Virus genome (UHGV): UHGV-0441209
Strand: one strand, 5' to 3'
Length of the DNA stretch: 41,109 nt
From: a virus
Shown here: piece by piece, positions 776 through 28,797 of the stretch
Layout: every line of letters starts with the position of its first letter
Position numbering within the stretch: the stretch's first letter is position 1
Program-made: the position numbers and the translations under genes
Notes under the pieces: generated by a model
Databases searched by the model: none
What the model was told of the DNA's origin: nothing
What the model saw: the letters and a program-made list of their open reading frames with translations, nothing else

Positions 776-847
776 TGGGATATAGCTTAACTGGTAGAGC
801 AGCGGTCTCCAAAACCGTCAGTATAGGTTCGAGTCCTATTGTTCCAG
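776..847 (+). tRNA. tRNA-Trp (anticodon CCA)
   Basis: Manual cloverleaf fold. Acceptor TGGGATA/TGTTCCA has two G-U wobbles. D arm is GCTT-AACTGGTA-GAGC. Anticodon arm is GCGGT-CTCCAAA-ACCGT. T arm is ATAGG-TTCGAGT-CCTAT. Discriminator is G and no CCA is encoded. It closely resembles Firmicute tRNA-Trp. Confidence 0.75.
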
Positions 848-2502: not shown

Positions 2503-2637
2503 AAAGAGACAAGTGCGCTAACACTTGCCTCAATTCAACGAGATACGAATACCCCGAAGACACAGAAACCACACGCGCGTGCTTTAAACCCAGTTCTGTG
2601 TCTTTTAGCATTATATAATAGTGCGAGGTATTCTACA

Positions 2638-2826
2638 ATGGAAACATTTGATTATGAAGTTCAACAAGCTTTAGAAAAGCAAAAGATTGCAGAAGAAAAC
2701 AACAAGATTATCAGGGCTGCAAAGGCTCAATGGATAAGCAATTTTAAAGCAGGTCATATCAAATTGGATACAGTTAAGGACCTAAAAGACTTAATTGAAA
2801 TTGAAAAAGAATTAACCAATATATAA
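2638..2826 (+). CDS. hypothetical protein (62 aa)
   Basis: ORF in the operon context; no motif recognised. Confidence 0.4.
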   Translation: METFDYEVQQALEKQKIAEENNKIIRAAKAQWISNFKAGHIKLDTVKDLKDLIEIEKELTNI

Positions 2827-2892
2827 TGAATGTTGAAAAAATTATCCAGTCGTTTATAATTATATTAAATAATTATTGGAGGACGTACAGCT

Positions 2893-3399
2893 ATGTTTTC
2901 TAAAAATGAAGAAATTTCAACTAAATCTATTCGGTTAGTAATTATAAGTGGTATTTCGCTCTGCTCAAGTTTATTTTATGTAAAAATAATGTATTGGTTA
3001 AATAATATTGGTTTTTTTGAAGTAAGTAGTAAGCGTAAAGAGTATCCTTTTGAAGCAAATTTTTCTGCATTATTATTTATGTTTGGAGTAATTTTTGTTT
3101 TTTGGGGACTTGCCTTATATATATTAAAAAATACGAATGGGGTTATAAGTTTTCTTATAGTTGGAGCAGCTCTTTCCATAATTTTGATTCTTACTAATAT
3201 AGGTTCTGATCCAACTGCATGGTGGCTATGGATAATAAACATTGTAATATGGTGTATTTTAGTAGGGTGTTTATTAGAGGTTATTTTTAATATTGTATGC
3301 TTGACTGTTAAAAACTATAGACAATTGGAAAATAAAGATCAATTTACTATAGGGTTAGCTATTGTTACATTTATACTAGGCTTTTTAGTAAGAAAATAG
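2893..3399 (+). CDS. integral membrane protein (about 4 TM helices)
   Basis: Strongly hydrophobic segments (LVIISGISLCSSLFYV, ALLFMFGVIFVFWGLALYIL, FLIVGAALSIILIL, WLWIINIVIWCILVGCLL). GGAGG ribosome binding site. Confidence 0.55.
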   Translation: MFSKNEEISTKSIRLVIISGISLCSSLFYVKIMYWLNNIGFFEVSSKRKEYPFEANFSALLFMFGVIFVFWGLALYILKNTNGVISFLIVGAALSIILILTNIGSDPTAWWLWIINIVIWCILVGCLLEVIFNIVCLTVKNYRQLENKDQFTIGLAIVTFILGFLVRK

Positions 3400-3446
3400 A
3401 AAACAAAACTCAACTATCAGCATGAAAAGCGAGGTGGTGTTAATGG

Positions 3447-4250
3447 ATGGCTAGAAAAAGAGATCCACGTCGTGACCAGGCTAAAGAAATTTGGTTAAAG
3501 TCAAACGGCAAAAAGGTTCTTAAAGAATTAGCTAATGAACTAAATGTTTCGGATTCTCAAATAAGGAAATGGAAATCGATAGATAAATGGGCTGATGAAT
3601 TAAAAGGTAATGTTACCAATGCAAAAGGTAACGTTACTAATCAAGGAGGCGCTCCTTTTGGTAATCAGAACGCAGTAGGCAACAAAGGTAATAGCCGGGC
3701 CTCGCCACCACTTGGTAATAAGAACGCTATTAAAACAGGCGAATACGAAACAATATTTGCCGATATGTTATCTGATGAAGAAAAGGACATCTATTCTAAT
3801 CTGAATGATGATCCTTTTTTTATTTTGGAGGAAGAAATAAGAATCCTAAAAATTCGTCAATATAGAATGCTTAAACGCATCAAAGATGCAGAGGTTGGCT
3901 TAAACGATGAAGAAGTTGAACGTTTGCAGCAGCTTCGGAAAGTCAAAGAGCCATCGGTGATTGATGGAAAAATGGTCACTGTCAAGAGAGAAGTTTTAAA
4001 AGATGTGCAAGTAACTCGTAAAACATTTAGAAAACTAGATGACATTTTGGCTATTGAGGAAGCATTGACAAGAATTAGCAATCAGTTAACAAAGGCTATT
4101 AAGCAACAGAATGCTTTGCTAGCAAATGATGCCAAATTACAACTATTGAAGGTTCAAACTGAAAAAGTTAAAGCTAGTTTAGATGCTACAAATGGAGACA
4201 TGGATATGCCAGTTTTCATCGATGATATATCAGGTGATGAATATGAGTAA
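3447..4250 (+). CDS. terS: terminase small subunit
   Basis: N-terminal HTH-like region, then G/N-rich repeats (GNVTNAKGNVTNQGG...GNKGN...GNKNAIKTGEYE) typical of Gram-positive phage TerS. Lies immediately upstream of and overlapping terL. Confidence 0.7.
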   Translation: MARKRDPRRDQAKEIWLKSNGKKVLKELANELNVSDSQIRKWKSIDKWADELKGNVTNAKGNVTNQGGAPFGNQNAVGNKGNSRASPPLGNKNAIKTGEYETIFADMLSDEEKDIYSNLNDDPFFILEEEIRILKIRQYRMLKRIKDAEVGLNDEEVERLQQLRKVKEPSVIDGKMVTVKREVLKDVQVTRKTFRKLDDILAIEEALTRISNQLTKAIKQQNALLANDAKLQLLKVQTEKVKASLDATNGDMDMPVFIDDISGDEYE

Positions 4251-22148: not shown

Positions 22149-22370
22149 ATGAACTTAACACTAGAACAATGGTTAGCGGTGATTACATTTTTAAGCGGAA
22201 TTATCTTCGCATTAATGAAATTCTATCATGTCTTCTCTCAATTAGAAGATAGCATGAAAGAACTAAAACAGGCTGTTGACCGATTAAATAACCATGAAGT
22301 GCGCATTAGTCGATTGGAAGAACAAAATAAAACCCTCTTTCGAGGAATTGGAGGAAATAAAAATGATTGA
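22149..22370 (+). CDS. XhlA-like membrane protein (lysis accessory)
   Basis: N-terminal TM helix (LAVITFLSGIIFALM) plus a coiled coil. Position before the holin, as in the Bacillus xhlA-xhlB-xlyA arrangement. Confidence 0.5.
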   Translation: MNLTLEQWLAVITFLSGIIFALMKFYHVFSQLEDSMKELKQAVDRLNNHEVRISRLEEQNKTLFRGIGGNKND

Positions 22371-22599
22371 TTGGAAATCAAGAATAAAAAATAAACAATT
22401 CTGGTTGTCTCTTATTCCTGCAGTTTTGCTAGTTATTCAAGTAGTTGCAGTTCCTTTTGGGTATAAATTTCAAATTGATGTGATTAATCAGCAACTGCTA
22501 GATGTTGTCAATGCAGTGTTTGTTGTATTAACTATTTTAGGAATTGTGACAGACCATACAACGCCTGGTTTATCAGATAAAAAGGAGACAAATAAATGA
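22364..22599 (+). CDS. holin
   Basis: 78 aa, two TM helices ([18 protein letters not shown]; [15 protein letters not shown]) and a charged C-terminus. Immediately upstream of and overlapping the endolysin. Confidence 0.65.
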
Positions 22600-23897
22600 A
22601 AAAGAAAATTTTAGCAGGAGCGCTTGTCGCTCTGTTTTTTATGCCTACTGCTGTATTTGCCGCAAAAGGTGACCAAGGCGTTGACTGGGCGATTTATCAA
22701 GGTGAACAAGGTCGTTTTGGCTATGCGCATGATAAATTCGCTATTGCCCAGATTGGTGGCTACAATGCTAGCGGTATTTATGAACAATACACATATAAAA
22801 CGCAAGTAGCAAGTGCTATTGCTCAAGGTAAACGTGCGCATACCTATATTTGGTATGACACTTGGGGAAACATGGACATTGCGAAAACAACAATGGATTA
22901 CTTTTTGCCACGTATTCAAACGCCTAAAAATTCCATCGTTGCATTAGATTTTGAACATGGAGCGTTGGCTAGTGTTCCAGATGGATATGGAGGATATGTA
23001 AGTTCAGATGCCGAAAAAGCAGCAAATACAGAGACAATTTTGTACGGTATGCGCAGAATCAAACAGGCTGGCTATACTCCAATGTATTACAGCTATAAGC
23101 CATTTACACTAAATCATGTAAACTATCAACAAATCATCAAAGAGTTTCCTAATTCTTTATGGATTGCTGCGTATCCTATCGATGGTGTGTCACCATATCC
23201 ATTGTATGCTTATTTCCCAAGCATGAATGGTATTGGCATTTGGCAATTCACATCCGCTTATATTGCAGGTGGTTTAGATGGTAACGTAGATTTAACAGGA
23301 ATTACGGATAGTGGTTATACAGAAACCAATAAACCAGAAACGGACACGCCAGCAATAGATGCAGGTGAAGAAATCGAAAAAACACCGAATTCTGATGTTA
23401 AAGTTGGTGATACCGTCAAAGTGAAATTTAATGTCGATGCTTGGGCAACTGGTGAAGCTATTCCGCAATGGGTAAAAGGAAACAGCTATAAAGTACAAGA
23501 AGTAACTGGAAGCAGAGTATTGCTTGAAGGTATCTTGTCATGGATTAGCAAAGGCGATATTGAATTATTGCCAGATTCAACAACTGTTCCTGACAAGCAA
23601 CCAGAAGCAACCCATGTGGTACAATACGGCGAAACATTATCAAGTATTGCTTATCAATACGGAACAGACTATCAAACCTTAGCTTCGTTAAATGGATTGG
23701 CCAATCCAAATCTTATTTACCCTGGACAAGTTTTGAAAGTCAATGGATCAGTAGTAAGCAACGTTTATACAGTCCAATACGGTGATAATTTATCTAGCAT
23801 TGCAGCTAAACTTGGTACGACTTATCAAGCTTTAGCACAACGAAACGGGTTAGTTAACCCTAACTTGATTTATCCAGGGCAAACCTTAAACTATTGA
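22596..23897 (+). CDS. endolysin: signal peptide + GH25 muramidase + SH3b-like + 2x LysM
   Basis: N-terminal [25 protein letters not shown] is signal-peptide-like. GVDWAIYQG...FAIAQIG...AHTYIWY...VALDFE are GH25-like blocks. Two C-terminal LysM repeats ([28 protein letters not shown]...PGQVLKV and [29 protein letters not shown]...PGQTL). Confidence 0.8.
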
Positions 23898-23963
23898 AAA
23901 AAATTCTTGCCTGAAAGTAAAAATAATTGTATATTAGACATACAATAAAGGAGTCATTCACTT

Positions 23964-23998
23964 AAACCGTCCTTGCCAAGGGACGGTTTTTGTTTTAC
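23964..23998 (+). terminator. Rho-independent terminator after the lysis cassette
   Basis: AAACCGTCC-ttgccaag-GGACGGTTT then TTTGTTTT. Confidence 0.75.
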
Positions 23999-24255
23999 AT
24001 AAAAAAATCTGTATAGTATACTTTCTTTAGTGATGACATTCACTATAGAATCTCAATTAATGACAAAATCACTCACCGTCATACGACAGATTGTGGGTGA
24101 TTTTGTTTTTTTAGTCGCCTTCCCCAAGGTGGCTCTTTTTTGTAATTATGAAATTAAAGATTTGTAACATGAATTTAAATATTCTTGCCAGATACTTACC
24201 CATTGTGATATTATGTTATTCAAGAGTAACAAGTTTGTGAATAGTAGGTGTGGAA

Positions 24256-24642
24256 ATGTCGAGTGAAGAATTATTTACTAAAGTCAACCTTTTTCTCACA
24301 ACTTTCAAAGAATGTGTTTCTGATGGACATGTAAGTTTTTCTGAAGTTAATGCAAAAACAACTAGATTCTTAAGGGCATATGGTATAACTGTTGCTGCAA
24401 TGCATAACTTTATCATAGAAAATATAGAAGAAAAGCATTATTTTAGAGGACCCTCAGAGCATCACAGAGCCTCGAATAGAACTGTGACAGAATTCGGCTT
24501 AGTTTGGGATGAAATAAAAGTGTATGTGAAGTTGGAATTGATAGCACAAGAGAATAATTTTGTTGCAGCATATATGTCTTTTCATCCTAGAGAACAAGAA
24601 ATTGATTGCTTTCCATTAGACTATAAGGGAGAGGTGATTTAG
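24256..24642 (+). CDS. MqsR-like toxin (putative RNase toxin of the toxin-antitoxin-chaperone module)
   Basis: By-eye alignment to E. coli MqsR: AMHNFIIENIEEKHYFRG vs GMCNVIIGLSESDFYKSM; LVWDEIKVY vs TIWQDVYRP; FVAAYMSFHPRE vs VLIVSFKEK. The toxin is encoded upstream of the HTH antitoxin, as in mqsRA. AGGTG ribosome binding site before the ATG at 24256. Confidence 0.45.
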   Translation: MSSEELFTKVNLFLTTFKECVSDGHVSFSEVNAKTTRFLRAYGITVAAMHNFIIENIEEKHYFRGPSEHHRASNRTVTEFGLVWDEIKVYVKLELIAQENNFVAAYMSFHPREQEIDCFPLDYKGEVI

Positions 24643-24643
24643 T

Positions 24644-25342
24644 ATGTCTAAAATTATAGAAAAGTTTTCATATGAAACTAATCAAAATGAAAGATACGAA
24701 GTAATTTTTTTAGAAGAAGACGTTACAATTAAAAACGATACATTTAAAGTCAAACATGAATATTATAAAAGAATATCAGATGATGAATTATTTGAACCAT
24801 TTTCTAACCCAGATCAAAATTTAGAAAAAGACTATAATATTTACAGAGAAAGACACAATTTGTTATCTGCTAAAAAAGTAAAAGAAATTAGAGAAAAATA
24901 CGAACTAACTATAAGAGATTTTTCAGTATTGCTGGGTATTAGTTATAGTAACTTATCTTCTATTGAGAACGGTAGTATTCAAGCTAATTATATTGATTCT
25001 TTGATACGACTAGCAGATGACCCATATGCCTTTTACAAATGTATTGTAAAAATAAAGGGAAAAAAAGTTCTTAAAGAAAAAGTATATAATAGACTAGAAA
25101 AATTATTGGAGGATCTAATATTAAATAGCTATTCTGAACATCAACAAATAGCTCAAAAAGTATACGGTTGTCAGTTAGATCTAAGAAATAATATTATTAG
25201 AATTGCTAACGTAATGGAGTTTGAAACTGAAAATCGCATTAAAGGAGAATTGAAATGGGAAAAATCAAATTCAAACGAATCAATAGTGGAATCGAATCTC
25301 TTCAGTTTGGCTTGGCCGAAATCGAAGAGAGTATATCAGTAA
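24644..25342 (+). CDS. HTH-Xre antitoxin with long C-terminal extension (candidate chaperone-addiction region)
   Basis: Central Cro/C1-type HTH (KKVKEIREKYELTIRDFSVLLGISYSNLSSIENG). Its start is 1 nt after the toxin stop. It carries about 120 extra residues after the HTH. It is followed by a SecB-like gene. Confidence 0.5.
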   Translation: MSKIIEKFSYETNQNERYEVIFLEEDVTIKNDTFKVKHEYYKRISDDELFEPFSNPDQNLEKDYNIYRERHNLLSAKKVKEIREKYELTIRDFSVLLGISYSNLSSIENGSIQANYIDSLIRLADDPYAFYKCIVKIKGKKVLKEKVYNRLEKLLEDLILNSYSEHQQIAQKVYGCQLDLRNNIIRIANVMEFETENRIKGELKWEKSNSNESIVESNLFSLAWPKSKRVYQ

Positions 25343-25641
25343 ATGGACAATTTAAATTAGAGGTAAACAAAGAAGAATCAAAATTATTAAAATTAGATGC
25401 TCATGTTGAGCTATATAAAGATAAAAGTGAAGATTCTTTTATGCAACTAAATTTTTATGGTATTTATGAAACTGATAATAATGATCCTAATCTGACATTA
25501 GTAGATATAGATAATTCAACAGATTTATTAAAAGATATTGTTCCAGAATTAAATAGAGTACTGACGTTCATAACCAAAGAAGGGCTAGGATCATCATTAG
25601 AGCTTCCAGAAAATTTTTCGGAAATACACAAAGAGTCTTAA
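25255..25641 (+). CDS. SecB-like chaperone
   Basis: By-eye alignment to E. coli SecB: [14 protein letters not shown] vs [42 protein letters not shown] vs [38 protein letters not shown] ribosome binding site 5 nt before the ATG. It overlaps the antitoxin 3' end by 88 nt in another frame. Confidence 0.6.
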   Translation: [128 protein letters not shown]

Positions 25642-25661
25642 AGTAAATTAGGATTCTTTCA

Positions 25662-25735
25662 GGACCATTAGCTCAGTTGGTTAGAGCAAACGGCTCATAA
25701 CCGTTCGGTCACAGGTTCGAGTCCTGTATGGTCCA
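25662..25735 (+). tRNA. tRNA-Met/Ile2 (anticodon CAT)
   Basis: Cloverleaf: acceptor GGACCAT/ATGGTCC. D arm is AGCTCAGTTGGTTAGAGC. Anticodon arm is AACGG-CTCATAA-CCGTT. T arm is CAGGTTCGAGTCCTG. Discriminator is A and no CCA is encoded. Confidence 0.85.
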
Positions 25736-25741
25736 TAGTAA

Positions 25742-25785
25742 AACACCTACCTCTTTTTCTTATGAGAGATAGGTGTTTTTATGTT
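25742..25785 (+). terminator. Rho-independent terminator after the tRNA
   Basis: AACACCTACCTCT...AGAGATAGGTGTT followed by a T run. Confidence 0.7.
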
Positions 25786-25802
25786 ATGGCAATATTTTTT
25801 TG

Positions 25803-25830
25803 TTGAAAAATAGAACAAACGTTCGTATAA
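25803..25830 (+). promoter_or_regulatory. Consensus sigma-70 promoter (TTGAAA-17 nt-TATAAT)
   Basis: TTGAAA at 25803-25808, a 17-nt spacer, TATAAT at 25825-25830; about 25 nt upstream of the 25856 gene. Confidence 0.6.
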
Positions 25831-25855
25831 TGTTTCTGATAGGAGAGTGTATCAG

Positions 25856-26341
25856 ATGGTGAGACGAACTAAAAAAGAGTTTAAACCTTACAACGATTAT
25901 GTTGACCGTCCTTTTGAATTAAAGTGGCCAACGGCGTTTCCGTTAGGCGAATTGACTGAAGCAATAAAGAATACTGATGAATATCACGCTCGAAATATTG
26001 AGAGGCTACCACAGCAATCACAGCGACAAATAGAATATTTTTTAGATCGCTCTATTAAGCAAAACAAAGTGCTAGAGATTCAATTGAATTCGTTAGATGA
26101 ATATGACCGAGTTAAGCCACATGTTTTTGGTGTTTTCCGTGGGATGGCAGAATTCGATGTTGTGCTGATTGGTGAACAAGAAATCGATTTTTATGATATT
26201 AGAAACATTCAGATTCATAATTTCACCAAGTGGAGTGAAGAACATATACTTGAAGAAAATCCATTTGAAGAAGAAACGGAACATTGCGAAACGATAGATG
26301 AATTCGTAGACGAATATTTCGATGATGAATGGATAGAATAA
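25856..26341 (+). CDS. acidic hypothetical protein (moron; possible anti-defence / DNA-mimic candidate)
   Basis: AGGAGAG ribosome binding site, then ATG at 25856 (the track start 25847 is a GTG). The C-terminus is extremely acidic (EENPFEEETEHCETIDEFVDEYFDDEWIE). It has its own promoter and a flanking terminator. Confidence 0.5.
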   Translation: MVRRTKKEFKPYNDYVDRPFELKWPTAFPLGELTEAIKNTDEYHARNIERLPQQSQRQIEYFLDRSIKQNKVLEIQLNSLDEYDRVKPHVFGVFRGMAEFDVVLIGEQEIDFYDIRNIQIHNFTKWSEEHILEENPFEEETEHCETIDEFVDEYFDDEWIE

Positions 26342-26605: not shown

Positions 26606-27181
26606 TTATAAGTCTAACAATTTCTGTTTCTTTTTATCAAATTCCTCTTGAGAAAGAATCCCCATATCTAAAAGTTCTTTTAATTTTTTTAAATTATCAA
26701 ATTGGTCTATTGCAGTATCACTTGATGTTTGTGTTTCTATGTTATCCAATATATAGTTTAAACCACCTAAAATTTCCTTTGCGGTGTTTGCCATTTGCTT
26801 ATACATGAATTTTGACTTGTCAATTTTAAAAGTTATTAGCTTTATGAACTTAGTAGGTTTAGGACTATTTTTAACGTGAATCATTATATCTAATTGGGAG
26901 CAATAATCTTTATCTTCTTTTTTTATTTTTGATGCACCGGTAATCGCAGCACCTGAAGTTCCAAATAGTATTCCGCCTAATGCTGCTCTTCCTAAGCTTA
27001 TGCCTCCATGAGTAACTTGATTTCCATCTTCGATTAGTTCAAAGCTGATTAAATCAGTATAATTAAAAATTTCACTTTTATATTTAAATAGTTTTCTTGC
27101 TTCATCTATTTTTATAGGGCCGTAGGAGCTAGTTTCTGTAAATTCAATATCATCTTTCTTTTTATGTTTGAATAAACCCAT
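26606..27181 (-). CDS. SHOCT-domain protein (N-terminal PH-like domain + Gly-rich segment + C-terminal SHOCT)
   Basis: C-terminal LKKLKELLDMGILSQEEFDKKKQKLLDL is a SHOCT motif. AAAGGTGGA ribosome binding site before the internal Met (MGLFKHKKKDD...), so the track's 27307 start is probably an over-extension. Confidence 0.5.
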   Translation of the reverse strand: MGLFKHKKKDDIEFTETSSYGPIKIDEARKLFKYKSEIFNYTDLISFELIEDGNQVTHGGISLGRAALGGILFGTSGAAITGASKIKKEDKDYCSQLDIMIHVKNSPKPTKFIKLITFKIDKSKFMYKQMANTAKEILGGLNYILDNIETQTSSDTAIDQFDNLKKLKELLDMGILSQEEFDKKKQKLLDL

Positions 27182-27394
27182 AATTTTTATCCACCTTTCT
27201 TCAAATTTTCTTATTCTTCCAGTATCATTTATCCATTCTTGGAATGAATAAATATTTCTTCGGTAGACTGTTTGCTGACATCTAATATTTTTTCGACTTC
27301 TTTCCAAACTATAACGAACAGTCCGACTTATTAATTTAAGTTAATTTTATCATTTAATAAAGATTTTACAAAGAGAAATATTAAATACATAAAA

Positions 27395-27634
27395 TGACCA
27401 TACTTTGACCATACTTATCAGAAAAAAAGAGTGAAAATGAAGAAACCATAATTGATATAAATGTTAATTTAGAAAAGATAAGATAAGTTAACGATTGTCA
27501 GAAAATAAAAATCTAAAAGTATCAGTTTATCCAGTAGCTAACTAATGTAATAGCTCAAGCCTTTGTTTATCAAAGGTTTGGGCTTTTTTTGTTGGTTTCA
27601 GAAAAAATTGACCATACTTTTGACCATACTTATT
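27395..27634. repeat. Putative attP region: four direct copies of TGACCATACTT (27395, 27406, 27611, 27623) flanking about 190 bp, adjacent to the int 3' end
   Basis: The repeats TGACCATACTTTGACCATACTTAT and TGACCATACTTTTGACCATACTTAT were read directly. This is the typical arm-type site architecture next to a tyrosine integrase. Confidence 0.5.
27553..27597 (+). terminator. Rho-independent terminator within the putative attP region
   Basis: GCTCAAGCCTTTG-tttat-CAAAGGTTTGGGC then TTTTTTT. Confidence 0.55.
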
Positions 27635-28797
27635 CAAAACCCGATGTAGTTAGCTAATTTTTCAGTAGTCACTTCTTTTCTATCATCTGTTAAATGTGTG
27701 TAGGTGTCTAACGTAGTCTTTATATTAGCGTGCCCGAGACGTTCTTGTACTTCTTTATGATCAGCGCCAGCATTGTATAACAGTGAGGCGTGCGTATGTC
27801 TAAATCCATGTAAGCCTATATTAGGTAAATTTGCTTTTTTTTGATATATCTTATATCTTTCTGTAATGGATTGATTAATAGTGAACTCATTAGAGTCATT
27901 AGTAAAAATTCTTGAAGGTTGAGTGAAACCCAACTTAAAAAGAAACTTCTTCTGTTCTGATCTCCATTTCTTAAGACACTCTAAAGTGATTCTATCTAAT
28001 ATGATTATTCTATTTGATTTTTTTGTTTTTGGGGTGGAGGATACATAATACGTATCCGATTTTGTAACGGTTTTATTTATTTGCAATTCTCCTGTCTCTA
28101 AGTTTAAATCATCCCAGGTTAGTGCTAGTAATTCTCCTATTCTACATCCACTGAAAGACAATAATCTAAATAGTGTATAATCTCTGATAGTTATATAATT
28201 ATTTTCTTGCGGCTGTTGATGTATACACTCTAAAAATTTTTGTAATTGGTCTTTGTTGTAAAATTTTATTTTCGTATCTTTAGGATTTGCAGTTTCCTTA
28301 TTCTTTGGGATGATTACATTGGTTGTTGGGTTTTCGGCGGTAACTCCCATATTTATAGCAAACTTAAAAACTTTATTCATATAATTTAAAAATAAAGGGT
28401 ATTGTTTTGATGTCCCGTTAGTGTGCCAGTTATTAACTATTTTTTGACAATAAGCTGTATTTATTTTTGCTATTTCAATTTTTCCGAAGTGAGGAAAAAT
28501 ATGTTTATTGAAAATTATGTTAGTACGAGAATAGCTACTATCTTTAACTGTATTTTTGTAGTTTTCAAGCCACAATACTGCTATCTCCTGAAATGTTATA
28601 GAAGAAGATTGCTTTATTCCGTTACGTTCAATCTCCATCTCTAATCTTGCCAATGCAATTTTTGCTTCTTTTTGTGTTTTAAATCCTCTCTTGGTAGTGT
28701 ATTTCTTTTTTTTAGTTAGTGGATCAATCCCAAGATAGGTTTTGAAGTACCATGCTTTTTCGCCGCTTTTCTTTTGATATTGCCTAATCATTGCCAT
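27634..28797 (-). CDS. int: tyrosine-type site-specific integrase
   Basis: C-terminal catalytic region HGFRHTHASLLYNAGADHKEVQERLGHANIKTTLDTYTHL (R...HxxR...Y). N-terminal SAM-like domain. Confidence 0.9.
   Translation of the reverse strand: MAMIRQYQKKSGEKAWYFKTYLGIDPLTKKKKYTTKRGFKTQKEAKIALARLEMEIERNGIKQSSSITFQEIAVLWLENYKNTVKDSSYSRTNIIFNKHIFPHFGKIEIAKINTAYCQKIVNNWHTNGTSKQYPLFLNYMNKVFKFAINMGVTAENPTTNVIIPKNKETANPKDTKIKFYNKDQLQKFLECIHQQPQENNYITIRDYTLFRLLSFSGCRIGELLALTWDDLNLETGELQINKTVTKSDTYYVSSTPKTKKSNRIIILDRITLECLKKWRSEQKKFLFKLGFTQPSRIFTNDSNEFTINQSITERYKIYQKKANLPNIGLHGFRHTHASLLYNAGADHKEVQERLGHANIKTTLDTYTHLTDDRKEVTTEKLANYIGF

What the first reader, a model, noticed from the sequence alone, without database searches (positions are those of the whole stretch)
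24256..25641. Tripartite toxin-antitoxin-chaperone module (MqsR-like toxin, HTH antitoxin with long C-terminal extension, SecB-like chaperone) in the prophage moron region
Three consecutive, tightly coupled genes sit between the lysis-cassette terminator and a phage tRNA. The first aligns by eye to the MqsR RNase toxin. The second is an Xre-HTH protein with about 120 extra C-terminal residues, the expected position of a chaperone-addiction segment. The third aligns well to SecB ([67 protein letters not shown]). SecB-dependent TA systems are known mainly from Mycobacterium and a few Proteobacteria. A phage-borne MqsR-type version in a low-GC Gram-positive phage would be unusual. It could serve as abortive infection, superinfection exclusion or addiction.
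Basis: partly seen in the sequence, partly recalled or inferred. Interest (0 to 1): 0.85.

Follow-up and report, generated by a model that had tools for sequence, protein, structure and literature searches.

The report
Phage-borne toxin-antitoxin-chaperone module
An Enterococcus faecalis prophage carries, between its lysis genes and a tRNA, a three-gene cassette that looks like a very diverged toxin–antitoxin–chaperone system: an MqsR-type RNase, a zinc-less MqsA-type repressor with a long tail, and a SecB-fold chaperone. This kind of system is already known from Proteobacteria and Mycobacterium, where some act as anti-phage defence, but databases do not recognise this Lactobacillales lineage.

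Summary
Three coupled ORFs lie at 24256-24642, 24644-25342 and 25255-25641, with a 1-nt gap and then an 88-nt overlap. They sit behind the endolysin terminator and before tRNA-Met. They form a ~1.75 kb insert compared with phiFL4A-like phages.

- **ORF2:** a sub-threshold MqsA-family match. It is 38% identical, tail included, to a relative that passes the MqsA threshold and keeps both CxxCG zinc motifs. ORF2 has lost these motifs. It carries about 100 extra, fast-evolving C-terminal residues.

The cassette recurs in nine further loci, with the same order, Shine-Dalgarno sites and gene 2/3 overlap. Seven of ten loci examined keep a palindrome beside the -10 box. Hosts include prophages, a satellite-like element, chromosomes and plasmid pMP118.

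The novelty is smaller than claimed, because MqsRA-type and prophage-borne defensive TACs are published. I rate it a new member of a known kind. Toxicity and chaperone dependence remain untested.

The parts
24185..24214 (+). Promoter-like site of the cassette: -35 TTGCCA, 18-nt spacer, -10 TATTAT with an upstream TG
   Evidence: Consensus scan, 10 of 12 matches. The -10 region and its surroundings align across six loci. Function is inferred.
24215..24230 (+). Candidate operator: palindrome GTTAT-N6-GTAAC immediately after the -10 box
   Evidence: It is the only match to GTTAY-N6-GTAAC in the window (11 of 100 shuffles also gave at least one match). GTTRY-N6-RWAAC is conserved at the same place in six loci whose upstream DNA is otherwise unrelated. 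A similar GTTG-N8-CAAC follows the -10 on pMP118. Binding by ORF2 is inferred by analogy with MqsA autoregulation.
24256..24642 (+). ORF1, 128 aa: MqsR-like putative RNase toxin
24644..24838 (+). ORF2 residues 1-65: degenerate, cysteine-free MqsA-type N-terminal domain, presumed to bind the toxin
   Evidence: It aligns with the zinc-ribbon domain of the L017 MqsA homologue (YYKRISDDE against YYKCEKCGE). Mean identity is 57% across modules.
24839..25033 (+). ORF2 residues 66-130: Xre-type HTH DNA-binding domain
   Evidence: Pfam HTH_3 and HTH_19 match residues 77-120. TIGR03830 MqsA family matches residues 55-126, E 1.9e-10. This is the most conserved part, at 68%.
25034..25342 (+). ORF2 residues 131-232 plus the stop codon: C-terminal extension, the candidate chaperone-addiction (ChAD) region. 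The last 29 codons are dual-coding with ORF3.
   Evidence: E. coli MqsA has no counterpart: it is 131 aa (my recollection) and TIGR03830 is 127 positions long, ending at about ORF2 residue 126. Only 26-30% identical across modules, against 57-68% for the core. Homologous up to about residue 204 with the L017 MqsA relative.
25241..25247 (+). Shine-Dalgarno AAAGGAG for ORF3, inside the ORF2 coding sequence
   Evidence: Read from the sequence. An SD at the same place was seen in the six modules inspected for it.
25255..25641 (+). ORF3, 128 aa: SecB-fold putative dedicated chaperone
25662..25735 (+). tRNA-Met (CAT), 20 nt after the ORF3 stop; possibly co-transcribed with the cassette
   Evidence: ARAGORN and Rfam at 73 bits. 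Related phages that lack the cassette also have it.
25740..25779 (+). Terminator-like hairpin followed by a U-run; probable end of the transcription unit
   Evidence: RNA fold gives -18.4 kcal/mol, z = -4.87.
23964..23989 (+). Intrinsic terminator of the lysis cassette; upstream boundary of the region
   Evidence: Terminator scan: 11 pairs, then a T-run.

Best explanation
The cassette is a tripartite toxin-antitoxin-chaperone (TAC) module of the MqsRA type, carried as a moron by a temperate E. faecalis phage.

Shown here:
- It is three translationally coupled genes with their own promoter-like site, conserved as one unit on different mobile elements.
- Gene 1 has an MqsR-like fold.
- Gene 2 is a homologue of MqsA-family antitoxins that has lost the zinc ligands and carries a variable extension of about 100 residues.
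- Gene 3 has a SecB fold closest to the M. tuberculosis TAC chaperone.

Inferred mechanism:
- ORF1 is an mRNA endoribonuclease.
- ORF2 neutralises it through its N-terminal domain. Through its HTH, ORF2 represses the operon at the GTTAY-N6-GTAAC palindrome next to the -10 box.
- The ORF2 C-terminal extension makes it prone to aggregation or proteolysis unless ORF3, probably a SecB-like oligomer, binds it.
- The 88-nt overlap couples chaperone synthesis to translation of that tail.
- When the chaperone is titrated away, most plausibly by unfolded structural proteins of a superinfecting phage as shown for E. coli HigBAC and CmdTAC, or when synthesis stops after loss of the element, ORF2 is lost. 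ORF1 then cleaves mRNA and stops growth. The outcome is abortive infection or superinfection exclusion, or post-segregational addiction.
For: Anatomy:
- ORFs, Shine-Dalgarno sites, the 1-nt gap and the 88-nt overlap.
- Promoter-like site plus a palindrome, unique in the window, that is conserved across loci.

ORF1:
- The secondary-structure order (helix, short strand, two helices, four strands) matches MqsR as I recall it from the published structure.
- PF15723 is virtually the only Pfam family hit by family members, at E 0.015 and 0.0057, the latter covering profile positions 17-94 of 95.
- Invariant Y90, K92, H69, S108 and F109 align with MqsR Y81, K83, H64, S94 and F95. The MqsR sequence used was checked as identical to 3hi2_B.

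ORF2:
- TIGR03830 matches in all four aligned members, best E 1.3e-13.
- The L017 relative scores 73.4 bits against a cut-off of 61.8, has two CxxCG motifs, and is 38% identical over 190 residues to ORF2.

ORF3:

Co-inheritance:
- The same three genes occur in prophages behind the lysin (L001, L014), in a satellite-like element (L007/L008), in chromosomes (L004 and L010 Trichococcus), on metagenomic contigs of unnamed origin (L015, L017), and on plasmid pMP118 next to MobL.
- The antitoxin extension and the chaperone are the fast-evolving parts (26-30% and 28% identity, against 57-68% for the rest). Published ChAD regions are likewise 'highly variable' with specific cognate chaperones (PMC5105189).

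Precedent:
- MqsRA-type TACs have been validated (PMC5105189).
- MqsRAC, HigBAC and CmdTAC defend E. coli against phages and are often prophage-borne (PMC9519451; 10.1101/2024.02.24.581848; PMC11618068).
Against: - None of the three window proteins reaches a curated threshold for MqsR, MqsA or SecB. Profile searches against PDB sequences and hhalign against MqsR and SecB are not significant.
- Foldseek on the ORF1 model finds no significant PDB hit. It lists only NTF2-like folds with poor TM-scores of about 0.37, and MqsR is not among the top 50.
- The ORF3 model rests on a four-sequence alignment, and two of the five ORF1 models had low confidence.
- ORF2 lacks the zinc ribbon that E. coli MqsA uses to bind MqsR, so the mode of neutralisation is uncertain.
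- The extension is about 2.5 times longer than published ChADs (30-46 residues) and is partly conserved and probably helical. It could be a dimerisation or sensor domain.
- The one conserved motif in the tail, (K/R)GE..KW, coincides with the SD and start codon of ORF3, so it is not independent evidence for a chaperone-binding site.
- A mirror-tree test did not tie the extension to the chaperone more closely than to the other parts.
- PADLOC does not recognise the system.
- No experiment exists for toxicity, RNase activity, chaperone dependence or defence.
Confidence: 0.72

Rival explanations
1. The mechanism is the same TAC, but its main role is addiction, meaning stabilisation of the prophage, satellite or plasmid by post-segregational killing, rather than anti-phage defence.
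For: The cassette sits on a 242-kb megaplasmid next to the relaxase MobL and on integrated elements. Classical type II TAs stabilise replicons. Nothing in the sequence points to a phage trigger.
Against: Integrated prophages gain little from post-segregational killing. The position, a lysis-to-integrase moron with its own promoter, is typical of lysogen-expressed exclusion genes. Experimentally studied prophage TACs act in defence (10.1101/2024.02.24.581848; PMC9519451). The module also occurs at a chromosomal site with no obvious mobile element nearby (L004).
Confidence: 0.25
2. This is a two-component MqsRA-like TA plus an unrelated third gene. ORF3 has a SecB-like fold but does not chaperone the antitoxin. 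It could be a sensor, an adaptor or an anti-defence protein, or a relative of the DUF1149/gbs1413 SecB-fold proteins, which are described as SecB homologues in lactobacilli.
Against: ORF3-family genes always follow, and overlap, the antitoxin gene in all ten loci examined. No family member hits DUF1149 or any other Pfam family consistently. The best structural match is the TAC-dedicated chaperone. The model lacks the second C-terminal helix that SecB uses to bind SecA (PMC6201924), as expected for a chaperone that does not work in export.
Confidence: 0.12
3. This is not a toxin system. ORF1 is a harmless NTF2-like or other small alpha+beta protein, and ORF2 is an ordinary Xre-type phage regulator with accessory proteins.
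For: Foldseek ranks NTF2-like folds first for ORF1 and finds nothing significant. ORF1 has no profile hit of its own. HTH proteins are common in phages.
Confidence: 0.06

Closest known systems
MqsRA-type TACs: Vibrio cholerae RC385 MqsR-MqsA-SecB(TA) (Bordes et al. 2016, PMC5105189) and E. coli C496_10 MqsRAC (Vassallo et al. 2022, PMC9519451)
   Same: Gene order is toxin, antitoxin, chaperone. The toxin is of MqsR type. The antitoxin is of MqsA type with a C-terminal extension beyond the HTH. The third gene has a SecB fold. The E. coli system defends against phage T2.
   Different: The window proteins cannot be detected with the MqsR, MqsA or SecB profiles. The antitoxin has no zinc-binding cysteines. 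The extension is about 100 residues, against 41 in Vcho-MqsA. Genes 2 and 3 overlap by 49-88 nt in this lineage. The host is a Gram-positive bacterium and the carrier is a temperate siphophage.
M. tuberculosis HigBA1-SecB(TA) TAC, Rv1955-Rv1957 (PMC5105189, PMC6377645)
Prophage-encoded E. coli HigBAC (NT1F31) and CmdTAC (Mets et al. 2024, 10.1101/2024.02.24.581848; Vassallo et al. 2024, PMC11618068)
   Same: These are TACs carried in variable prophage loci. The chaperone acts as the phage sensor: it is titrated by major tail or capsid proteins, and abortive infection follows. This is the functional model proposed here.
   Different: The toxins differ (HigB RNase, CmdT ADP-ribosyltransferase). 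The hosts and phages are proteobacterial. No trigger is known for the enterococcal module.
Firmicute MqsR-like 'D2' toxins paired with ZBD-HTH-Panacea antitoxins (Bacillus fungorum and L. rossiae MqsR:PanA; Ernits et al. 2023, PMC10440598), and the SecB-like protein next to an MqsRA-like TA in Lactiplantibacillus garii (WP_125072952, mentioned in 10.1101/2024.02.24.581848)
   Same: These are MqsR-like toxins of Bacillota with MqsA-like antitoxins that carry an extra C-terminal module. The L. garii case shows that a Lactobacillales MqsRA with a SecB-like gene has already been noticed.
   Different: PanA antitoxins use a Panacea domain instead of an extension plus a separate chaperone, and they keep the zinc-binding domain. 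I could not compare sequences with WP_125072952 because it is not available in the tools, so identity of lineage is untested. None of these is described as phage-borne in Enterococcus.
DUF1149 / gbs1413 (PDB 2o2a) SecB-fold proteins of Firmicutes (PMC6201924)
   Different: The Lb. casei homologue is presented as a putative export chaperone, with no TA link reported. No ORF3-family member hits the DUF1149 profile.

Membership tests
MqsR toxin family (Pfam PF15723) | Profile match at or above the gathering score (26.2 bits) | tested here: not met
   ORF1 gives no hit even at E <= 10. One of 13 family members reaches E 0.015. The 38%-identical L017 homologue scores 17.5 bits, E 0.0057, over profile positions 17-94 of 95.
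MqsR toxin family (Pfam PF15723) | MqsR three-dimensional fold (RelE-superfamily alpha/beta) | tested here: met
MqsR toxin family (Pfam PF15723) | Catalytic residues equivalent to E. coli K56, Q68, Y81 and K96 (recalled from Brown et al. 2009) | tested here: inconclusive
   The MAFFT alignment puts invariant Y90 on Y81, R64 on K56 and H110 on K96. Alignment at this divergence is unreliable, and the Q68 equivalent is unclear.
MqsR toxin family (Pfam PF15723) | Toxin gene precedes an MqsA-type antitoxin gene | tested here: met
   The ORF1 stop is 1 nt before the ORF2 start. ORF2 is MqsA-related.
MqsR toxin family (Pfam PF15723) | Growth inhibition through mRNA cleavage | not testable with these tools
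   Needs expression and RNA cleavage assays.
MqsA antitoxin family (NCBIfam TIGR03830 CxxCG_CxxCG_HTH; Pfam PF15731) | Profile score at or above the cut-off (61.8 bits for TIGR03830) | tested here: not met
   ORF2 scores 40.6 bits, E 1.9e-10, and matches only profile positions 46-118. The L017 homologue (38% identical, E 5e-41) scores 73.4 bits over the full profile, so ORF2 is a diverged relative of true members.
MqsA antitoxin family (NCBIfam TIGR03830 CxxCG_CxxCG_HTH; Pfam PF15731) | Two CxxCG motifs forming the N-terminal zinc ribbon | tested here: not met
   There are no cysteines in ORF2 residues 1-130. YYKRISDDE replaces YYKCEKCGE of L017, and the first motif (CFECGN in L017) is also absent. 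L001, L004, L008, L010, L014 and L015 lack the motifs as well.
MqsA antitoxin family (NCBIfam TIGR03830 CxxCG_CxxCG_HTH; Pfam PF15731) | Xre-type HTH C-terminal to the toxin-binding domain | tested here: met
   HTH_3 and HTH_19 match residues 77-120.
MqsA antitoxin family (NCBIfam TIGR03830 CxxCG_CxxCG_HTH; Pfam PF15731) | Palindromic operator in its own promoter (autoregulation) | tested here: inconclusive
   A conserved palindrome GTTAY-N6-GTAAC abuts the -10 box. Binding was not tested, and the sequence differs from the E. coli mqsRA palindrome.
Toxin-antitoxin-chaperone (TAC) systems | Three co-oriented genes in one operon: type II TA pair plus a SecB-like gene | tested here: met
   The arrangement is conserved in nine other loci.
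Toxin-antitoxin-chaperone (TAC) systems | Chaperone with the SecB fold | tested here: met
Toxin-antitoxin-chaperone (TAC) systems | Antitoxin carries a variable C-terminal extension absent from two-component homologues (ChAD) | tested here: met
   About 100 residues lie beyond the end of the MqsA profile. Identity is 26-30% there, against 57-68% in the core. The length is atypical.
Toxin-antitoxin-chaperone (TAC) systems | Antitoxin stability and toxin neutralisation depend on the cognate chaperone | not testable with these tools
   Needs co-expression or rescue assays, or at least a complex prediction.
SecB export chaperone (Pfam PF02556) | Profile match to SecB | tested here: not met
   None of the 29 ORF3-family members scanned hits it at E <= 1. 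The profile against PDB sequences finds no SecB. hhalign against E. coli SecB gives E 0.11, although it aligns in topological register over 101 columns.
SecB export chaperone (Pfam PF02556) | C-terminal helix alpha-2 and tail that bind SecA | tested here: not met
   The model has four strands and one long helix (88-111), with only a three-residue helical turn after it. The protein ends at residue 128.

The most novel reading that the evidence does not exclude
The module represents an unannotated, Lactobacillales-wide lineage of TAC systems. It spreads on temperate phages, phage satellites and plasmids. It has re-engineered the MqsA scaffold by losing the zinc ribbon and adding a 100-residue helical extension in place of a short ChAD. 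Its minimal, SecA-independent SecB-fold protein acts as the sensor of superinfecting enterococcal phages. This would be the first chaperone-gated abortive-infection system in Gram-positive bacteria. It raises the question of how the carrier prophage keeps its own capsid and tail proteins from triggering the system on induction.
Probability: 0.3. Interest if true: 0.65.

Novelty: new member of a known kind. Interest (0 to 1): 0.45.

Why it matters
TAC systems have been shown to sense phage structural proteins through their chaperone, but every studied example comes from Proteobacteria or Mycobacterium. A phage-borne version in Enterococcus faecalis, a clinically important target of phage therapy, could explain resistance of lysogens to therapeutic phages. 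It would also extend chaperone-gated immunity to Gram-positive bacteria that lack a SecB export pathway.

The practical point concerns annotation. All three proteins are labelled 'hypothetical' or 'HTH domain-containing' in RefSeq. They escape Pfam, PHROGs, NCBIfam and PADLOC thresholds. The lineage is therefore invisible to current defence and TA finders, and profiles built from alignments A5 and A8 would capture it.

The zinc-less MqsA domain and the conserved dual-coding overlap of antitoxin tail and chaperone start are small but real structural variations. They are worth noting for anyone studying TA evolution.

Tried and rejected
- **Direct profile searches.** All three proteins were scanned against Pfam, PHROGs, NCBIfam and PADLOC. 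Only ORF2 gave usable hits.
- **Family profiles against PDB sequences.** They found nothing real. The best ORF1 'hit' (8qsr) is an artefact: the family motif YFRGPSEHH matches a protease-site plus His-tag sequence, LEVLFQGPVDHHHHH. ORF3 gave ribosomal protein S4 at E 0.04.
- **hhalign against MqsR and SecB.** The alignments are in plausible register but not significant: E 0.03-0.11, probability under 2%.
- **afdb50 fold search.** The library was unavailable.
- **Locus searches.** The search for related loci with the ORF3 alignment failed because no block is conserved enough. With the ORF1 alignment it found only two genome loci and three viral loci, so the lineage is rare in those collections.
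- **tblastn of ORF1 against phages.** No match.
- **Mirror-tree correlation.** Pairwise identities of ORF3 against the other parts gave rho 0.33-0.52 with no preference for the extension. This is uninformative with eight modules.
- **Conserved Trp in the ORF2 tail.** I first took it for a ChAD aromatic like W108 and W137 of Mtb HigA1. I rejected this as independent evidence because the TGG codon overlaps the ORF3 start codon and the preceding KGE is the ORF3 Shine-Dalgarno site.
- **Rfam.** It found only the tRNA in 23800-26000.
Full report
**1. What is in the sequence**

The window is a temperate Enterococcus faecalis phage or prophage. DNA around the finding matches only Enterococcus phages. 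The local gene order is as follows:
- holin, 22294-22599
- GH25/LysM endolysin, 22596-23897
- the three ORFs of the finding
- tRNA-Met, 25662-25735
- a 164-aa ORF of unknown function
- a SHOCT-domain protein on the minus strand
- a tyrosine integrase, 27634-28797, minus strand
- an ImmA/HTH lysogeny pair

The finding's coordinates are exact. ORF1 is 24256-24642 (128 aa), ORF2 is 24644-25342 (232 aa) and ORF3 is 25255-25641 (128 aa). ORF1 and ORF2 are separated by one nucleotide. ORF2 and ORF3 overlap by 88 nt. Each start codon has a good Shine-Dalgarno sequence.

Control signals frame the unit. A strong terminator follows the endolysin at 23964-23989. A promoter-like site (TTGCCA-18-TATTAT with TG) lies at 24185-24214. 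A terminator-like hairpin follows the tRNA at 25740-25779.

In phiFL4A, EFP1 and AE4_2, the endolysin is followed within about 50-65 nt by the same tRNA-Met. Window positions of about 23905-25656 are therefore a ~1.75 kb insertion, which is a moron in the strict sense.

**2. The cassette is a conserved unit on many mobile elements**

ORF1 has 15 homologue clusters, and every named one is from Enterococcus. I inspected the neighbourhoods of those and of distant ORF3 relatives. All show the same trio: a 120-135 aa gene, a 215-232 aa HTH gene, and a 124-138 aa gene that overlaps the end of the second by 49-88 nt. I checked Shine-Dalgarno sites in six modules and found them at the same places.

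The carriers differ:
- prophages, directly after the lysin (L001, L014)
- a satellite-like element with capsid, small terminase and HNH genes (L007/L008)
- chromosomal sites in E. olivae (L004) and Trichococcus flocculiformis (L010)
- metagenomic contigs (L015, L017)
- the 242-kb plasmid pMP118 of Ligilactobacillus salivarius, next to MobL and a Fic protein (L018)

Upstream DNA is unrelated among these loci, apart from about 50 nt before ORF1. That stretch contains the -10 box and, abutting it, the palindrome GTTRY-N6-RWAAC. In the window it is GTTATTCAAGAGTAAC at 24215-24230, the only such match in the window. pMP118 has GTTG-N8-CAAC at the same place. This is the expected appearance of an operator for an autoregulating HTH antitoxin. 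Binding is inferred, not shown.

**3. ORF1**

ORF1 has no hit in any profile library, and its family profile finds no PDB sequence.

Foldseek disagrees. It finds nothing significant, its best hits are NTF2-like, and those alignments are poor (TM about 0.37, rmsd 8-10 A).

There is weak sequence support. Among Pfam's 24,736 models, MqsR_toxin is practically the only family hit by members of the ORF1 family. One of 13 members hits it at E 0.015. The 38%-identical L017 homologue hits it at E 0.0057 across profile positions 17-94 of 95.

A multiple alignment with E. coli MqsR, whose sequence I verified against 3hi2_B, places invariant Y90, K92, H69, S108 and F109 on MqsR Y81, K83, H64, S94 and F95. 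It places R64 and H110 on K56 and K96. Y81, K56 and K96 are catalytic in MqsR by my recollection of Brown et al. 2009.

I conclude that ORF1 is very probably an MqsR-like RNase toxin. It is not a member of PF15723 as that family is currently defined.

**4. ORF2**

ORF2 has an HTH at residues 77-120. It matches the MqsA-family model TIGR03830 at E 1.9e-10, but at 40.6 bits against a cut-off of 61.8, and only over profile positions 46-118. All four aligned relatives hit the same model, best E 1.3e-13.

The decisive bridge is L017. Its middle gene, once the start is corrected to position 750, has both CxxCG motifs (CFECGN and CEKCGE). It scores 73.4 bits over the whole TIGR03830 profile. It is 38% identical to ORF2 over 190 residues, including most of the C-terminal extension (E 5e-41).

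In ORF2 the second motif reads YYKRISDDE where L017 has YYKCEKCGE, and the first motif is also gone. ORF2 is therefore a zinc-less descendant of an MqsA-type antitoxin.

About 100 residues follow the end of the MqsA profile. Across six modules, mean pairwise identity is:

| Part | Identity |
|---|---|
| ORF1 | 62% |
| ORF2 N-terminal domain | 57% |
| ORF2 HTH | 68% |
| ORF2 residues 131-200 | 30% |
| ORF2 tail | 26% |
| ORF3 | 28% |

The extension and the third protein are thus the fast-evolving parts. Published chaperone-addiction regions and their cognate SecB-like chaperones behave the same way (PMC5105189).

One caveat applies. The only conserved motif in the tail, (K/R)GE..KW, is the Shine-Dalgarno site and start codon of ORF3 read in the other frame. 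It says nothing about chaperone binding. A mirror-tree test was uninformative.

**5. ORF3**

- ORF3 has no Pfam, NCBIfam or PADLOC hit.
- None of 29 scanned family members hits SecB or DUF1149.
- Profile searches against PDB sequences find no SecB.
- hhalign against E. coli SecB is not significant, although it aligns the two proteins in the right topological register over 101 columns.

The family is tiny, with 30 representatives at E <= 1e-3 among 1.84 billion cluster representatives.

The model lacks the second C-terminal helix through which SecB binds SecA (PMC6201924). This fits a dedicated chaperone that does not work in export.

**6. Most likely mechanism**

The module is an MqsRA-type toxin-antitoxin-chaperone system. 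The architecture, folds, homologies and conservation as a unit are shown here. The following steps are inferred:
- ORF1 cleaves mRNA.
- ORF2 blocks it through its N-terminal domain and represses the promoter at the palindrome.
- The ORF2 extension makes it unstable unless the ORF3 oligomer holds it.
- The conserved overlap couples ORF3 translation to translation of that tail.
- Titration of ORF3 frees the toxin. For prophage-borne E. coli HigBAC and CmdTAC the titrating agents are unfolded major tail or capsid proteins of an infecting phage (10.1101/2024.02.24.581848; PMC11618068).

Confidence is about 0.7 for the TAC mechanism. For defence rather than addiction as the main role it is about 0.5. 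The module's presence on a megaplasmid keeps addiction a live possibility.

**7. Comparison with what is known, and novelty**

- MqsRA is one of the three TA families known to associate with SecB-like chaperones. The V. cholerae RC385 MqsRA-TAC was validated in 2016 (PMC5105189).
- E. coli C496_10 MqsRAC protects against T2 (PMC9519451, as summarised in 10.1101/2024.02.24.581848).
- Prophage location is common for TACs.
- Firmicute MqsR-like toxins with ZBD-HTH antitoxins carrying another C-terminal module, Panacea, have been validated (PMC10440598).
[quoted passage not shown] A Lactobacillales version has therefore been seen, though not studied.
- I found no paper describing a TAC in Enterococcus or its phages.

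The finding is thus a new, strongly diverged member of a known kind. Four features distinguish it: loss of the zinc ribbon, an extension about 2.5 times longer than described ChADs, a minimal SecB-fold protein beyond the reach of sequence profiles, and a conserved dual-coding overlap of genes 2 and 3. RefSeq annotates all three genes as hypothetical or generic HTH.

**8. Verdict**

Novelty is modest and function is untested. Interest is 0.45.

Noticed in passing
window 23994-24142: A small structured unit lies between the lysin terminator and the cassette promoter. It has a promoter-like site (TTTACA-17-TATACT, 23994-22) and two strong hairpins: 24062-24107, followed by a U-run, and 24113-24134, also followed by a U-run. 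The fold is -39.4 kcal/mol, z = -5.8 against shuffles. It could be a small RNA or a double terminator. There is no Rfam match, and it is not conserved upstream of the cassette in other loci.
   Followed up: partly
window 25662-25735; L001 4795-4868; L014 4808-4881: The tRNA-Met (CAT) gene lies downstream of the cassette in the window but upstream of it in two other prophages. Cassette-free relatives such as phiFL4A have the lysin followed directly by the tRNA. The lysin-tRNA junction therefore looks like a hot spot where the cassette has inserted on either side. The copies differ by paired changes in the acceptor and T stems. I did not test whether it is a true Met tRNA or a lysidine-type Ile tRNA.
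   Followed up: partly
window 24627-24642 and 25241-25257: There is dual use of sequence. The conserved C-terminal GEV of ORF1 is encoded by GGAGAGGTG, the Shine-Dalgarno site of ORF2. The conserved KGE..KW of the ORF2 tail is the Shine-Dalgarno site plus start codon of ORF3 (AAA TGG read as ATG G). Protein-level conservation here reflects translation signals.
   Followed up: yes
L018 (NC_007930.1, pMP118 of Ligilactobacillus salivarius UCC118) 2504-3866: The same three-gene module sits on a 242-kb mobilisable megaplasmid, between the relaxase MobL and a Fic family protein. Its genes are annotated as hypothetical, HTH-domain and hypothetical. Its third gene matches the ORF3 family profile (hhalign probability 96%).
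   Followed up: partly
L007/L008 1-4600: One copy of the module lies at the end of a small element. The element encodes HNH, a capsid-like protein and a small terminase, but no other structural genes within the 5 kb shown. This is reminiscent of a phage satellite (PICI-like).
   Followed up: no
L017 750-809: The gene caller started the L017 antitoxin at 810. The real start at 750, which has a Shine-Dalgarno site, adds the first CxxCG zinc motif and lifts the protein above the MqsA family cut-off. Precomputed annotations of such antitoxins may be systematically truncated.
   Followed up: yes
window 25847-26341 and 26606-27307 (minus strand): Two more cargo-like genes lie between the tRNA and the integrase. 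One is a 164-aa protein with an acidic C-terminus and no family hit. The other is a 233-aa protein ending in a SHOCT domain. PADLOC recognises neither. The 164-aa gene is shared at about 91% DNA identity with Enterococcus phage IME_EF3.
   Followed up: partly
window 776-847: The phage carries a second tRNA gene, tRNA-Trp (CCA).
   Followed up: no
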